Source of the DNA: the human T2T-CHM13v2.0 reference genome, Homo sapiens
Reading direction: 5' to 3' (one strand)
Assembly (NCBI RefSeq): GCF_009914755.1
Contig: NC_060944.1
Length of the DNA stretch: 64,000 bases
A model generated the notes under the pieces. That model was given only the letters and a program-made list of their open reading frames with translations. It made no database searches and had not been told where the DNA came from. Position numbers and translations under genes: made by a program. This document shows, piece by piece, positions 36,484-61,416 of the stretch (the stretch's first letter is position 1; each line of letters starts with the position of its first letter).

Positions 36484-36591
36484 TTCTATATGTTCTTTAC
36501 AGTATTCCAACCCAATGTCACTAAGTATTTTTTTCACAGTTTTCCGGGCTTTTCTTAAACTGCCAAGATTGTTGACAGGAAGTTGGAACAT
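36484..36591 (-). CDS. ADNP: ADNP first coding segment (aa 1-36, [36 protein letters not shown]); the exon spans 36484-36596 with 5 nt of UTR
   Basis: ttttttccaatag|AAACT ATG at 36591 and donor GAA|gtaagt. The three exons sum to 1102 aa, the known ADNP length. Confidence 0.98.
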
Positions 36592-39500
36592 AGTTTCTAT
36601 TGGAAAAAAAAATTTAAGTCAAAGTCAAAACACGTACAACTTGTAATATTTACTAATTCCACTGATGATAGGATCATAAAACCTACCCATCTGACAAAAA
36701 AGGTGCATAGATATCCTCATCTAGTGTGTACACACACAGACACACACCTGCTTTCATGTGCATATGGCTTGATATATCCATCCATCCATCCTTCCTTCCT
36801 TTTCTTAAGACAGAGTCTTACTCTGTCGCGCAGGCTGGAGTGCAGTGCACTCATGGTTCATTGACTGCAGTGCACTCACGATTCACCATAGCCTCAACCT
36901 TCTGGGCTCAAGTGATCCTCTCACCTCAGCTTCTCAAGAGGAAGGGACTCCAGGAGTGCGCCACTATGCCCAACTAATTTTTAAAATTTTTTTGTAGAGA
37001 CTAGGTCTCACTATGTTGCCAAGGCTGCTCACAAACTCCTGGACTCAAGCCATCCTCCTGCCTTGGCACCCCAAAGTGCTGGGATTATAGGCGTGAGCCA
37101 CTGAGCCGAGCACATATCTACTATATTTTGAATACTTAAAGCAGGCAGGCAAAATAAGTACTCTCTGATTTTCCCAGTTTTTAACAGGACATTTTGACTA
37201 TGAGTCTAATCTGGCATAATTCTGATAAGACTTAACAACAGTTCAGTAATGAACTTCAAGATGAAAATTAGAGAAATACTAGCAATCAATTATTTTTAAA
37301 TCAAGTGTTAGTGCTTTTCTCATTTTGATGTTGAACATCTGAAAACAGAAAAATGCTTACCAGTTCATCATCATTACAGTTTTGAGTGCCAGGGTAAAGA
37401 GGTTTTTGTTGAATTGGAACTGTCCTGCCTACTGCTACGGTATTCTTTAAAACAAAAACAAAAACAAAAACAAAAACAAAAAAACCTTAAGTTTCTGTAT
37501 ACTCCCCAAACTAAATACAGTAATGATATGTGACTCGACCAATGCATGCCCCCACTCCACCCCTGCCTGCAACGTACCTGGGCAAAGGTACTCAAAAATG
37601 TTAACTGTTACAGACTTTAAGGAGGGTACTTTTGAAAAAAATGAAAAGCCTGTATGTGTCTAAGGGAACTCAAAAATTATTTTAATGACCTAATACATTA
37701 AATTAGAAATTCATATCAACTTTCCCAAGTTCCTTAAAACAGAAGTTTGTCTTTAATGAGAAAATAAAATCAGTAAAACCTGGGCAGCTGAGAATATGTA
37801 TGGTTTCTAATGAGATCAGAAATGCTTCCCATAATATGGTAAAAATTTATCAATTTAATAATCCAAATCTAACACAATTTCGCAGGATATAAAGTAGTTC
37901 TAAAACCCAAAACAGCAAAAACAAAAGACAAAGCACCAGGAATTAAAATTTAATATATGCAAATCCAGTTTTCTAATTAACAAAGGCTGTTACTCTGTAA
38001 TACCAATATCATCTGTAAATGGCAAGTCAACTAATCCAAATGTAATAAAATGCTGCCTCATTTATTATTCTAATCCAAAATCAACGTTAACTATAAAAAA
38101 ATGGAAAATAAAAGGAGAAAGAGTGAAATCTACCAAAATCAAAGAGTAACCCCTAGAAATTTTGAAACTGGGTACGTTACTCTAACTTAGAAGTCTCAAA
38201 ATATTCTATATGAAGTACCAAAGTCTAATTGGGGCCGAAAATGAAAAGTATTTCAAAAAAACCTTCTAGGCCTTATCATACTCAAGATAGAATTGCTGCT
38301 CACTATGAAGCAATGACTATGGTGTCCCCTGCTCTCTCTGCTATGCTAATAATCTGCATATTGTGAAGCCAACTACAGACTTAGAAGTCACTTCTGATAT
38401 AAATTAAGACCAAATCAATTATTTTTTGTCCAAATTTTATTGCTAAATTGTTTTAAACCATCTTTTGTGGTGGCTTAAAACCAGCAAATTCTTTATCACT
38501 TGCTTAATTTAAAACAGTTAGTACACACTGGGCATGGTGCCTCACGCCTGTAATCCCAACACTTTAGGAGGCCGAGGAGGGCAGATCACGAGGTCAAGAG
38601 ATCGAGACCAACCTGGCCAACATGGTGAAAACCCGACTCTACTAAAAATACAAAAAATTAGCTGGACGTAGTGGCACGTGCCTGTAATCCCAGCTACTCG
38701 GGAGGCTGAGGCAGGAGAATCGCTTGAACCCGGGAGGCAGAGGTTGCAGTGAGCCAAGATCGCACCACTGCACTCCAGCATGGCGAGAGCGAGATTCCAT
38801 CTCAAAAACAGACAAACAAAAAACACATACAGTTACTACAAACCAGGTCTTTTAGAGAGAAGCACATGTTAGAAAAATATTTCAGAAATACAGAAAAGTG
38901 TCACAGGCTAATTCTGAAGAAACCAGGTATTAAAATGGATGCCCACAGATACCTAAGACTGGGAAGAGACATCTTGTTTCTCTGTTCATTTCATAAACTC
39001 TCTATGGGCCAAAATTCAGTTCTTTGGGAACTTCCTGAGTTAACTCTGCTTCACACTTCATAACAGATGTGTCCAGAAGCCAGCCATTAATGGTTTCCCT
39101 GCCTCCTGGATGAGTGGCTCAACAATCTCAGAAAAACAAAGACATAAAGATTTGGAAATGCAGCCACCACTGGGGTCATTAGTCTATAGAAAACATAAAA
39201 AAGAATCAAGCGGCAGCTTGGGGGAAAGAAAAACCCATTCTTCTAAGTGCCTACCCACAGCTTAAAAAGTCGGTTTAAGACATTAAGATGAAGCATCTCA
39301 CTGCCTGGTAGGTATTTTTTTCTGAAAAAGTGAGTATGCCCATAAGGGAACTTAGTTGTAAGAAACTTGTAATTTATAAAAAGCGGTATTTCAGCCACAG
39401 AGTTGGTGTTGGGTTTACTTATCTATTTTGAATTTAAAAGGCTTATAAATAAAGCAGTGACACTGCTTACTGGGAAATGCTGTACCAAAAAATGTTATCT

Positions 39501-60500: not shown

Positions 60501-61416
60501 ATTATATGGTCATTTTCAGAACTTAAATAACTGCATATAAAACACCAAATAAAGATAAAAACTATACCTGCCTACAAATACTATACAGTATTTAAAAATT
60601 TAAATAATCCCATTTAAATATGTGATTTTTCACAATGACTAAGAAATTGTAGAAGCAATGTCTCTAGTCAAATACCTGTACCAAAGGGCCTCCTTTTCAC
60701 TCACCAAAATGTTACCTGGTAGCAATTCTCCAATGAAAAATTCTCCTGTTAAGCACCAACTGGTTAACTAGGTATCAAAGAATACACCCATTCAGTTCTC
60801 CATAAACTTATCTTGGTGTATTTATGTAACATACAAAGTCTTAAAGGTACCCACAAACATCAACCACTGTCAATCTTTGGTAGCAAGAACAAGTTCATGG
60901 AAAACCATGTTTTCATCAGACATTTAAGGCTTTTAGAAGCTTAGCAACTCTAGAGATTGGGTTATCAAAGTAATAGTAACTGAATACTTATACTTTATAC
61001 AAAGGGGTGTAGAATGCAAATGATTACAATATTAGCATCTGTAAAAATTTCTCTTAAAAAAGCTGTAAGTAATTTCTTATGTTAATAAGTGTTCAGAACC
61101 CACTACTGCAACCAGCTCTAACCGGTTCCTTGAGGAATGTGGCTAGGCTGAAATTTTGGAAGTGTTGGTTTTGGTGGTGACCAAGGAGAAGGAAGTCTCT
61201 GGCTTCCCTGTTGCTGCAGTTCCCACCCTCCAAAATGAATATACCCACCGGTGTGAATTGACAATGTGGTCCAAAGAGCAAGGCAGGAAACGGAGTCCAG
61301 ATCCTCAAAATGGTAGTACAGGGCATAACCACTAGGCCACCTATCAGTTCAGTACAAAAAGTACAACCCTGCGCATCATGGTGTAAAAGCTGGGGCCTAG
61401 GTTTCGCATTGTGCAT
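36555..61416 (-). CDS. Candidate spliced overlapping uORF, 97 aa (segments 61416-61249, 37444-37361, 36596-36555); 69 aa if the 84-nt exon is skipped
   Basis: Manual translation across GT-AG junctions: ATG at 61416, no stop until TAA 36557-36555. Translation is not demonstrated. Confidence 0.45.
37361..37444 (-). other. ADNP: ADNP 84-nt leader cassette exon
   Basis: (GTTTTT)n tract followed by ttaaag|AAT..., donor ACTG|gtaagc. Length is a multiple of 3. Confidence 0.85.
37449..37485 (-). repeat. (GTTTTT)n STR forming the polypyrimidine tract of the 84-nt ADNP exon
   Basis: About 6 units of aaaaac on +, directly adjacent to the AG at 37446-37445. Confidence 0.85.
43790..44095. mobile_element. 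L1 fragment: antisense ORF2 3' part joined to a short sense 3'UTR piece
   Basis: ttttgttgcttgtgcttttgaggtc...gtttcattcttctgca, then tgtacattatttgggtgatggatacactaaaacccag. Confidence 0.6.
46316..47758 (+). pseudogene. PSMD10P1: Processed pseudogene of PSMD10 (gankyrin), antisense within an ADNP intron
   Basis: Intronless copy reading (T)[20 protein letters not shown]...ALHWACSA...[38 protein letters not shown]...RMVEG-TAA (46995-46997). Start ATG changed to ACA (46326), premature TAA 46482-46484, frameshifts, 3'UTR with AATAAA 47736-47741 and A-tail remnant. TSD aaaacatcaatcctg (46301-46315) / aaaacatcattcttg (47755-47769). Confidence 0.92.
50330..50765 (+). mobile_element. Old L1M 3' end
   Basis: gcagtattattcataata, tgaaccttgaaaacattat, aaatggtggttgccaggggctggg. 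Confidence 0.75.
51890..51914. repeat. (TA)n microsatellite in an Alu linker
   Basis: Read directly. Confidence 0.9.
54659..55765. mobile_element. MER21-type solo LTR interrupted by an Alu (55177-55480)
   Basis: TG...CA ends and MER21-like motifs (ctgacactgtctacctgga, ggctcagtccccaaaactgc, ataattaatttgct-like, gagccaggaaccgtgg). Confidence 0.65.
57862..57889. repeat. (AC)14 microsatellite
   Basis: Read directly. Confidence 0.95.

What the first reader, a model, noticed from the sequence alone, without database searches (positions are those of the whole stretch)
36555..61416. Hidden 97-aa ORF threaded through the 'non-coding' ADNP leader exons and overlapping the ADNP start codon
Seen: the first AUG of the spliced leader (61416, gagATGc) starts a frame covering 56 codons to the end of the 175-nt exon, all 28 codons of the 84-nt exon, and 13 codons of the start-codon exon, ending at TAA 36557-36555 past the ADNP AUG in another frame. 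Peptide: [97 protein letters not shown]. Both junctions are phase 0 for this frame, and the cassette is a clean multiple of 3 (skipping gives 69 aa with the same C-terminus). It is the only stop-free frame in each leader exon. It also stays open upstream through the exon 1 junction (LEAES-R-C-E-M) back to a TGA near 63747. A genomic ORF scan cannot see it. Roughly, 96 stop-free codons arise about 1% of the time per frame at uniform composition. Inference: either a Cys/His-rich, partly hydrophobic microprotein (CxxC, central hydrophobic stretch), making ADNP mRNA bicistronic, or a strong repressor, because ribosomes on an overlapping uORF cannot reinitiate at the main AUG. This matters for a dosage-sensitive autism gene (Helsmoortel-Van der Aa syndrome). 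I cannot tell whether Ribo-seq catalogues already list it.
Basis: partly seen in the sequence, partly recalled or inferred. Interest (0 to 1): 0.9.

Follow-up and report, generated by a model that had tools for sequence, protein, structure and literature searches.

The report
Overlapping upstream ORF in ADNP leader
The 97-codon frame threaded through the ADNP leader exons is real, but it is an ordinary out-of-frame overlapping upstream ORF that published ribosome-profiling tables already list, it is weakly translated, and its peptide is not conserved among mammals.

Summary
Splicing the annotated exons reproduces the ORF exactly: ATG 61416 to TAA 36557-36555, 97 codons, phase-0 junctions, 69 codons without the 84-nt exon. 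Two side claims fail. An ATG at 63878 precedes it in the long RefSeq exon 1. A genomic scan also lists a 107-aa unspliced ORF from the same ATG. Shuffled leaders give this length 1.3-1.6% of the time.

It is already catalogued. The 69-aa form is a translated overlapping uORF in Ji 2015. The exact 294-nt ORF on ENST00000621696 is in Rodriguez 2019. There it has signal in 1 of 4 replicates, about a tenth of the CDS translational efficiency, and mean PhyloCSF -4.8. The GENCODE 7,264 set lists the 21-aa uORF from ATG 61409, not this ORF.

Mouse Adnp has an ATG ORF of the same geometry. In 29 related database proteins the ATG is kept (28 of 29) and the first 43 codons stay similar, but the last 13 codons of exon 2 are read in three different frames.

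Best reading: a weakly used cis-acting uoORF in exon-2-containing isoforms, not a conserved microprotein. Its function is untested.

The parts
61249..61416 (-). uoORF segment 1: ATG 61416-61414 plus 55 further codons to the end of the 175-nt leader exon (exon 2)
   Evidence: This is the only stop-free frame of the exon. Context is G at -3 and C at +4.
37361..37444 (-). uoORF segment 2: all 28 codons of the 84-nt cassette leader exon (exon 3). Skipping it gives the 69-aa form.
36555..36596 (-). uoORF segment 3: 13 codons plus TAA 36557-36555 in the start-codon exon. It overlaps the first 37 nt of the ADNP CDS in frame +1.
   Evidence: The stop lies 71 nt upstream of the exon 4/5 junction.
36589..36591 (-). 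ADNP main start codon (A at -3, T at +4)
   Evidence: it opens 1102 codons; hub annotation
61344..61409 (-). 21-aa uORF from the next ATG, 7 nt downstream, in another frame. This is GENCODE Ribo-seq ORF c20norep83.
   Evidence: One search gives the same peptide. One search gives hg38 chr20:50928746-50928811, labelled 'primatomorpha - young, de_novo_ORF'. Ji 2015 lists the 11-aa version from ATG 61379 with the same stop.
61324..61326 (-). In-frame internal ATG of the uoORF (Met31). It gives 67-aa and 39-aa overlapping forms.
63424..63522 (-). Exon-1 part of a CTG-initiated 34-aa uORF that ends at TGA 61420-61418, one base before the uoORF ATG
   Evidence: Ji 2015 row ADNP:NM_015339:66:170. I mapped the coordinates onto the window and read CTG at 63522-63520.
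63870..63878 (-). Exon-1 ATG-AGC-TGA mini-uORF. It is present only in transcripts that start upstream of it.
37361..37374 (-). Three consecutive ATGs in exon 3 (M-M-M-N). Their TGA stop is completed by the first base of exon 4 (36596).
63747..63749 (-). TGA that bounds the uoORF frame upstream (110 open codons before the ATG in the spliced leader)

Best explanation
This is an AUG-initiated, out-of-frame overlapping upstream ORF (uoORF/oORF) in ADNP mRNAs that contain leader exon 2. It is one of several upstream initiation events in an AUG-rich leader.

Shown: the ORF exists, ribosome-profiling studies call it translated at a low level, and mouse Adnp has an ATG ORF of the same geometry.

Inferred: a minority of scanning ribosomes start at ATG 61416. 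Those ribosomes pass the ADNP AUG while elongating and terminate 34 nt downstream of it, so they are lost to ADNP synthesis. Because the stop lies 71 nt upstream of the next exon junction, these events could also mark the mRNA for nonsense-mediated decay. The net effect would be a modest dampening of ADNP output in cis. That effect would be tunable by start site and by skipping of leader exons, since the exon 1-exon 4 isoform has none of these AUGs. The peptide itself is most likely a by-product without a function of its own.
For: Anatomy.

Translation calls:
[quoted passage not shown] Its blocks of 42 and 168 nt map to 36555-36596 and 61249-61416.
- Rodriguez 2019 Additional file 4 'Full Set' (uORFs detected by SPECtre at 5% FDR) has row ENST00000621696.9. 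It is ATG-initiated, spans positions 173-467 (294 nt), and is flagged in_CDS.
- Mouse brain RibORF tables have Adnp-overlap.uORF3, ATG 357:567 on a transcript whose CDS starts at 530. That is 210 nt, with the ATG 173 nt upstream of the main ATG and the stop at +37. The human 69-aa form has exactly these distances.

Peptide unconstrained while ATG and openness are kept:
- PhyloCSF is -4.82 / -5.24.
- In 29 related database proteins, 28 of 29 keep the Met; P0003 lacks the first three residues and has its Met three codons downstream.
- In those proteins, 33-43 of the first 43 residues are identical in 28 of 29, and 28 of 43 in P0003.
- The tail of exon 2 is read in the human frame in 17, in a second frame in 10, in a locally compensated shift in 1, and in the third frame in 1.
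- Two spliced exon 2-exon 4 relatives (P0002, P0024) run on in the other out-of-frame frame of exon 4.

NMD geometry.

A uAUG-free isoform exists: ENST00000396032, with a 170-nt 5'UTR in which exon 1 is joined to exon 4.
Against: - Occupancy is low. SPECtre signal appears in 1 of 4 SH-SY5Y replicates (score 0.135), and uORF TE is 0.055-0.065 against CDS TE 0.59-0.76. Any repression in those cells would therefore be small.
- It is not among Ji's uORFs with more than 3-fold higher TE than the CDS.
- It is not in the GENCODE 7,264 Ribo-seq ORF set as tabulated by Sandmann 2023. That set lists the 21-aa uORF starting 7 nt downstream and an internal ORF.
- The mouse table used a lenient RibORF cutoff of 0.3.
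- No reporter, mutational or NMD data for ADNP were found: 1 and 3 papers hold the search terms, and I read passages of only the single paper, where 'uORF' occurs only in a cited reference title about another gene (NIPBL); the three papers I saw only as listing and abstract starts.
- Conservation of the ATG and frame could be passive. About 75 nt of intron 1 and 150 nt of intron 2 flanking the exon are also well conserved: 46% and 41% of 4-residue words are shared with human in any frame, against 68% in the exon and 10% further upstream.
- The protein search can only find relatives whose frame is open, so species with a broken ORF would not appear.
Confidence: 0.6

Rival explanations
1. Incidental open frame with background translation and no measurable regulatory effect. 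Exon 2 lies in a conserved non-coding block, so the ATG and the open frame persist passively. Ribosome footprints there reflect pervasive leader translation.
For: - Length arises in 1.3-1.6% of shuffles, and an out-of-frame overlapping uORF arises in 44%.
- 15.0% of 18,764 MANE 5'UTRs have an oORF.
- Signal in 1 of 4 replicates, at about a tenth of the CDS TE.
- Absent from the GENCODE 7,264 set.
- Flanking intron is conserved too.
- PhyloCSF is negative.
Against: - Three separate ribosome-profiling studies in two species call an ORF from this ATG.
- The ATG is in an adequate context (G at -3).
- For transcripts starting downstream of 63878 it is the first AUG.
- By the scanning model (established knowledge), such an AUG must capture some ribosomes.
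Confidence: 0.25
2. A functional 97-aa (or 69-aa) Cys/His-rich, partly hydrophobic microprotein, which would make ADNP mRNA bicistronic.
For: - The ORF is long and is called translated.
- The first 43 residues are 77-100% identical in 28 of 29 relatives, with 22 invariant positions in a 21-sequence alignment. The CxxC cysteines are at least 90% conserved.
- There is a hydrophobic stretch at residues 19-37, with a 19-residue Kyte-Doolittle mean of 1.57.
Against: - PhyloCSF is -4.82 / -5.24.
- ADNP is not among the peptides Ji 2015 found conserved in mouse, although 46% of overlapping-uORF peptides were.
- Residues 44-56 are read in three frames among relatives. The downstream exon frame and stop therefore differ, and in the second frame exon 3 carries stops.
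- No Pfam match.
- GC3 is 0.38 in the ORF frame against 0.55 and 0.46 in the other frames.
- The N-terminal string occurs in 0 papers.
- The ORF is not in the GENCODE 7,264 set, which, as far as I recall (not checked in any call), is the set later peptide-evidence surveys were run on.
Confidence: 0.05
3. The conserved element is an RNA structure or other RNA signal in exon 2, and the ORF is a side effect of it.
For: Exon 2 and its flanks are strongly conserved while the codon-level signal is negative.
Against: - The exon folds no better than shuffles: z = -1.29, and 25 of 200 shuffles fold at least as well.
- No Rfam family matches at E up to 1 in 60900-61800.
- No covariation test was possible because I had no nucleotide sequences from other species.
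Confidence: 0.05

Closest known systems
Generic out-of-frame overlapping uORFs (oORF/uoORF) of human mRNAs
   Same: An upstream AUG with no in-frame stop before the main AUG, terminating inside the CDS out of frame. Such ORFs are called translated by RibORF and SPECtre in the same tables as about a thousand other genes: 1,054 genes in Ji 2015 and 1,599 transcripts in Rodriguez 2019. 15.0% of MANE 5'UTRs have one.
   Different: It is longer than usual. Median overlapping uORF length was 37 aa in Ji 2015, against 69 or 97 aa here. It is also spliced across two or three leader exons.
ATF4 uORF2 (recalled from the literature; Ji 2015 mentions ATF4's three uORFs and one overlapping uORF)
   Same: An out-of-frame uORF that overlaps the main start codon and excludes its ribosomes from the main ORF. 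Short uORFs lie in the same leader.
   Different: - In ATF4 a short 5'-proximal uORF precedes the overlapping one and sets up delayed reinitiation under eIF2 phosphorylation (recalled).
- Here the overlapping ORF's AUG comes before the short AUG uORFs.
- Its measured translation is far below the CDS, whereas ATF4's upstream ORFs are translated much more than its CDS.
- No stress response of ADNP translation was examined.
Protein-coding long uORFs such as the ASNSD1 uORF (about 96 aa) and the MIEF1 uORF (70 aa); names, sizes and properties of both recalled; only a reference title naming a MIEF1 microprotein was seen.
   Same: Similar length and position in the leader of a protein-coding mRNA.
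   Different: Those are reported to have codon-level conservation and detected proteins (recalled). This ORF has negative PhyloCSF, a frame that differs between mammals, and no peptide evidence that I could find.

Membership tests
Out-of-frame overlapping upstream ORF (uoORF/oORF) | AUG upstream of the annotated start codon in the mature mRNA | tested here: met
   ATG 61416 lies 257 nt upstream of the ADNP ATG with exon 3 and 173 nt without it.
Out-of-frame overlapping upstream ORF (uoORF/oORF) | No in-frame stop before the main AUG; terminates inside the CDS in another frame | tested here: met
   The stop TAA 36557-36555 lies 34 nt past the A of the main ATG, in frame +1.
Out-of-frame overlapping upstream ORF (uoORF/oORF) | Ribosome occupancy with codon periodicity | tested here: inconclusive
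   It is listed as translated by RibORF (Ji 2015) and SPECtre (Rodriguez 2019). However, signal is in 1 of 4 replicates with a low score, and it is absent from the GENCODE 7,264 set. I saw no raw footprints.
Out-of-frame overlapping upstream ORF (uoORF/oORF) | Lowers translation of the main ORF in cis | not testable with these tools
   This needs a reporter or genome edit. No such data turned up in the library searches.
Functional microprotein (sORF-encoded protein) | Codon-level purifying selection (positive PhyloCSF, or dN/dS below 1) | tested here: not met
   The published mean PhyloCSF is -4.82, and -5.24 for the 5'UTR part. I could not compute dN/dS because no nucleotide sequences of other species were available.
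Functional microprotein (sORF-encoded protein) | Whole ORF (frame, length, stop) conserved across species | tested here: not met
   Three different frames are used for codons 44-56 among the 29 relatives: 17, 10, 1 compensated and 1. Mouse keeps the human frame for the 69-aa form.
Functional microprotein (sORF-encoded protein) | Peptide detected | not tested
   No proteomic data could be searched. The N-terminal string is in 0 papers.
NMD-triggering uORF | Stop codon more than about 50-55 nt upstream of an exon junction (rule recalled) | tested here: met
   The stop is 71 nt upstream of the exon 4/5 junction, and another junction follows.
NMD-triggering uORF | mRNA stabilised when NMD is blocked | not tested
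   I did not consult any dataset for this.

The most novel reading that the evidence does not exclude
The conserved part is the AUG plus the first 43 codons, with 22 invariant residues in a 21-sequence alignment, including a run T-E-L-I-G-G-L and a CxxC. These might act as a regulatory nascent peptide. In that case its sequence, not the rest of the ORF, would modulate elongation or termination on the ADNP leader, and so how many ribosomes reach the ADNP AUG. This would explain why the N-terminal part is kept while the C-terminal frame drifts among mammals. My evidence does not exclude it, because I could not separate amino-acid-level from nucleotide-level constraint without nucleotide sequences. 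The negative PhyloCSF and the conserved flanking intron speak against it.
Probability: 0.07. Interest if true: 0.65.

Novelty: already known. Interest (0 to 1): 0.25.

Why it matters
ADNP is a dosage-sensitive neurodevelopmental gene, so its leader matters for interpreting 5'UTR variants. Relevant changes include those that destroy ATG 61416, strengthen its context, shift the uoORF into the ADNP frame, or alter inclusion of exon 2 or exon 3. Any of these could change ADNP output. The practical result here is a map of the upstream starts, which isoforms carry them, and which isoform escapes them. The ORF is not a new kind of element. It is already in published tables, and the evidence points away from a conserved microprotein and away from strong repression.

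Tried and rejected
- Five catalogue papers were not held: Duffy 2022 (human brain), Chothani 2022, Mudge 2022 by DOI and by PMC id, and Chen 2020. Their supplements may list this ORF and could change the picture of how well it is translated. I could not open further supplements because the look-up cap was nearly used (14 of 15).
- Library searches for ADNP with 'uORF' (1 paper; there 'uORF' occurs only in a cited reference title about NIPBL) and ADNP with 'upstream open reading' (3 papers, seen only as listing and abstract starts, none with both terms in title or abstract) showed no study of an ADNP uORF in what I read.
- A broader three-term search returned only general uORF papers among the 25 listed of 1,620.
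- Pfam gave no match for the exon 2 and exon 3 peptides at E up to 1.
- Exon 2 is single copy in the window's own genome, so I saw no sign of a repeat origin. Exon 3 was not tested this way.
- RNA structure: exon 2 folds at z = -1.29, and there was no Rfam match.
- P0031, the weakest hit of the exhaustive protein search (E 1.9e-06, 48% identity over 21 residues), is a tandem-repeat protein. I set it aside as unrelated.
- I did not fold the peptide or predict a complex. Only single-exon pieces can be handed to those tools, and a single-sequence model of a 56-residue piece would not have settled anything.
- I could not decide the exon structure of the second mouse transcript, ENSMUST00000088001. 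It has only non-AUG uORFs ending 44 nt before the CDS, and its table was cut when stored.
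Full report
**1. Observation**

I read the four leader exons on the minus strand and joined the annotated exons in a script.

- ATG 61416-61414 opens 97 codons that end at TAA 36557-36555.
- The ORF uses 168 nt of the 175-nt exon, all 84 nt of the cassette exon, and 42 nt of the start-codon exon. Both junctions are therefore phase 0.
- The stop lies 34 nt past the A of the ADNP ATG (36591), in frame +1.
- Without the 84-nt exon the ORF is 69 aa with the same end.
- It is the only stop-free frame of both leader exons. The frame stays open for 110 codons upstream, through exon 1, to TGA 63749-63747.

Two side statements need correcting.

- The RefSeq exon 1 holds an ATG at 63878 followed by one codon and a stop. 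ATG 61416 is therefore the first AUG only for transcripts that start further downstream.
- The ORF is not invisible to a genomic scan. The same ATG opens a 107-aa unspliced ORF, 61416-61093.

The leader has nine ATGs before the ADNP ATG. They include one 7 nt downstream of 61416 in another frame (a 21-aa uORF) and an in-frame one at 61326.

**2. Chance**

I ran 20,000 dinucleotide-preserving shuffles of exons 2 and 3.

| Outcome in shuffled leaders | Frequency |
|---|---|
| Frame stays open from the fixed ATG to the real stop | 1.6% |
| Any uAUG ORF of at least 97 codons | 1.3% |
| Some out-of-frame overlapping uORF | 44% |

In print, 15.0% of 18,764 MANE 5'UTRs have an overlapping ORF (Wieder 2024, passages). 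The length is uncommon for a single gene. Across the whole genome it is not surprising.

**3. It is already catalogued**

*Ji et al. 2015* (eLife, PMC4739776; passages and supplement searches).
[quoted passage not shown] Its sheet 'overlapping.uORF' holds the row ADNP:NM_015339:chr20:-:172:381.
- The row has two blocks, of 42 and 168 nt.
- I tied hg19 to the window in two steps. First, the exon-2 boundary and the stop of the 21-aa uORF agree with the hg38 coordinates of that uORF. Second, I applied a recalled hg19-to-hg38 shift, which those two points confirm.
- With that mapping the blocks are 36555-36596 and 61249-61416. This is the 69-aa form of this ORF.
- The same file lists two further ADNP uORFs. 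One is an 11-aa ORF from ATG 61379. The other is a CTG-initiated 34-aa ORF from 63522 that ends at TGA 61420-61418, one base before the uoORF ATG.

*Rodriguez et al. 2019* (BMC Genomics, PMC6528255; Additional file 4, parts 1 and 286, and passages).
- The table lists the exact ORF on ENST00000621696: ATG-initiated, positions 173-467, 294 nt, ending in the CDS.
- It sits among 4,954 uORFs that SPECtre detected in SH-SY5Y cells at 5% FDR.
- Support is thin. There is a SPECtre score in 1 of 4 replicates (0.135, an RA-differentiated one), and the uORF translational efficiency is 0.055-0.065 against 0.59-0.76 for the CDS.
- The same row gives a mean PhyloCSF of -4.82, and -5.24 for the part in the 5'UTR.

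*GENCODE set, which counts against it.*
- The GENCODE set of 7,264 Ribo-seq ORFs, as tabulated by Sandmann 2023 (PMC10032668, supplement search), has only two ADNP rows.
- One is the 21-aa uORF from ATG 61409, labelled 'primatomorpha - young, de_novo_ORF'. The other is a 65-aa internal ORF.
- ADNP is also absent from Ji's list of highly translated uORFs.

*What is not in print.*
- The library searches found no study of an ADNP uORF in what I read; I read passages of only the single paper, and the three papers I saw only as listing and abstract starts.
- The N-terminal string of the peptide is in no paper's main text.
- Several catalogue papers were not held, so their supplements remain unseen.

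**4. Other species**

*Mouse.*
- The data are RibORF tables from cultured hippocampal slices (PMC13396407; supplement searches and Methods section 27; cutoff 0.3).
- They list eleven overlapping uORFs on ENSMUST00000057793, whose CDS starts at 530. Nine end at 567.
- The only ATG-initiated one (357:567, flagged representative) is 210 nt. Its ATG is 173 nt upstream of the main ATG and its stop is at +37.
- These are exactly the distances of the human 69-aa form. From this I infer that mouse keeps the ATG position, the exon length and the open frame.
- Ji 2015 nevertheless did not list the ADNP peptide among those conserved in mouse at BLASTP E < 1e-4, although 46% of overlapping-uORF peptides were.

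*Database proteins.*
- I searched with the 56-residue exon-2 peptide. Proteins of similar length gave 2 hits among 2 candidates. Longer proteins gave 27 hits among 29 candidates.
- An exhaustive HMMER scan of cluster representatives gave 8 hits. Seven overlap the above and one is an unrelated repeat protein.
- These 29 proteins are ORF calls on unnamed contigs. One of them (P0027) is named by its source as a Camelus ferus ADNP model.
- Some are spliced. P0006 joins exons 1-2-4. P0005 joins exons 2-3 and runs into the intron. P0002 and P0024 join exons 2-4. Most of the others read into the flanking introns, so they are genomic.
- 28 of 29 keep the Met; P0003 lacks the first three residues and has its Met three codons downstream. 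In 28 of 29, 33-43 of the first 43 residues match the human sequence. P0003 matches 28 of 43.
- A 21-sequence alignment has 22 invariant positions in that part.
- The last 13 codons of exon 2 are not kept as protein:

| Reading of codons 44-56 | Number of the 29 |
|---|---|
| Human frame | 17 |
| Second frame of the human DNA | 10 |
| Shifts and then returns to the human frame | 1 |
| Third frame | 1 |

- In the two spliced second-frame relatives, the ORF continues in the other out-of-frame frame of exon 4 and ends at a different stop.
- In that second frame, exon 3 carries stops.
- In the third frame, an exon 2-exon 4 mRNA would read into the ADNP frame.
- Residues 44-97 of the human peptide are therefore not conserved as a protein.

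*Caveats.*
- The search can only find open frames.
- The clusters are not species.
- Three of the 29 (P0004, P0005, P0006) are identical to human over the exon.
- Single contigs may carry indel errors.

*Flanking conservation.* The flanks are conserved as well. The table gives the share of 4-residue words shared with human DNA in any frame.

| Region | Shared words |
|---|---|
| Exon 2 | 68% |
| 25 residues upstream (intron 1) | 46% |
| 50 residues downstream (intron 2) | 41% |
| Further upstream | 10% |

Passive conservation of the ORF inside a conserved block therefore cannot be excluded.

**5. Other properties**

- No Pfam family matches.
- pI is 7.6. The 19-residue hydropathy maximum is 1.57 at residues 19-37. 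GC3 is 0.38 in the ORF frame against 0.55 and 0.46 in the other two frames.
- Exon 2 is single copy in the genome.
- It folds no better than shuffles (z = -1.29), and no Rfam family matches.

**6. Mechanism**

*Shown.* The anatomy is that of an out-of-frame overlapping uORF with an adequate start context (G at -3, C at +4). It is called translated at low level in human cells, and a matching ORF is called in mouse brain tissue.

*Inferred from the scanning model (established knowledge).*
- Ribosomes that start at 61416 read through the ADNP AUG and stop 34 nt downstream, so they cannot make ADNP.
- Ribosomes reach the ADNP AUG by leaky scanning past a cluster of AUGs, or by reinitiation after the short uORFs.
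- The stop lies 71 nt upstream of the next exon junction, which fits the usual rule for nonsense-mediated decay (rule recalled).

*Isoforms.*
- The load of upstream AUGs depends on the isoform. Exons 1-2-3-4 and 1-2-4 carry the uoORF. Exons 1-3-4 and 1-4 do not.
- An exon 1-exon 4 transcript with a 170-nt leader is annotated in Ensembl (ENST00000396032).
- Three further annotated exons lack an AG acceptor, so they are alternative first exons.
- A review states that the untranslated second exon is alternatively spliced (PMC9658893, passage).

*Size of the effect.* Measured occupancy is about a tenth of the CDS, and it appears in one replicate only. I therefore expect modest dampening rather than strong repression.

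**7. Comparison and verdict**

- The element meets the structural definition of a uoORF. Its translation evidence is weak, and its effect on ADNP is untested.
- It fails two tests for a functional microprotein: codon-level conservation and a conserved full ORF.
- It resembles ATF4 uORF2 in geometry but not in arrangement or translation level.
- The exact ORF is in published supplementary tables, so it is already known as a catalogue entry, although no one appears to have studied it.
- The most novel reading left open is a regulatory nascent peptide in the conserved first 43 codons. I give it about 7%.
- Interest is low to moderate, mainly for interpreting 5'UTR variants in a dosage-sensitive gene.

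Noticed in passing
window 61344-61409 (-): A 21-aa uORF starts at the ATG 7 nt downstream of the uoORF ATG, in another frame. It is the ADNP leader ORF that the GENCODE Ribo-seq set lists (c20norep83, labelled young/de novo). Ji 2015 lists the 11-aa version from ATG 61379 with the same stop.
   Followed up: partly
window 26829-27026 (-): A 65-aa internal out-of-frame ORF lies in the last ADNP exon. It matches GENCODE Ribo-seq ORF c20norep82, labelled 'conserved'. I located it.
   Followed up: partly
window 63424-63522 + 61418-61423 (-), and about 63707-63793 (-): Non-AUG uORFs in GC-rich exon 1 are called translated. One is a CTG-initiated 34-aa ORF ending one base before the uoORF ATG (Ji 2015). 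The other is a TTG-initiated 28-aa ORF (Rodriguez 2019). In the Rodriguez row, 5'UTR translational efficiency is 4.9-17.7 against about 0.6-0.76 for the CDS.
   Followed up: partly
window 61470-61667 (-) and intron 1 upstream of exon 2: A 65-aa ATG ORF lies just upstream of exon 2, inside the alternative first exon 61249-62934. In several related database proteins (for example P0018, P0023, P0024, P0029, P0030) similar sequence is fused in frame with the exon-2 ORF, giving open frames of 155-261 aa. In human a stop separates the two.
   Followed up: partly
P0027 (database protein; its source names it ADNP of Camelus ferus): This 667-aa gene model begins with sequence that looks like DPM1 (my recollection; DPM1 is the neighbouring gene on the same strand). 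It then reads the exon-2 ORF as coding before joining ADNP pieces. It looks like a chimeric automatic model.
   Followed up: no
window 37445-37480 (-): A (TTTTG)n-type run lies directly upstream of the acceptor of the 84-nt cassette exon. It may bear on the inclusion of that exon.
   Followed up: no
window 37361-37374 + 36596 (-): Three consecutive ATGs at the end of exon 3 open a 4-codon uORF. Its TGA stop exists only after splicing to exon 4.
   Followed up: no
between window 36596 and 61249: The offset between window coordinates and hg19 differs by 3 nt between exon 2 and exon 4. This implies a net 3-nt length difference in the introns between the two assemblies.
   Followed up: no
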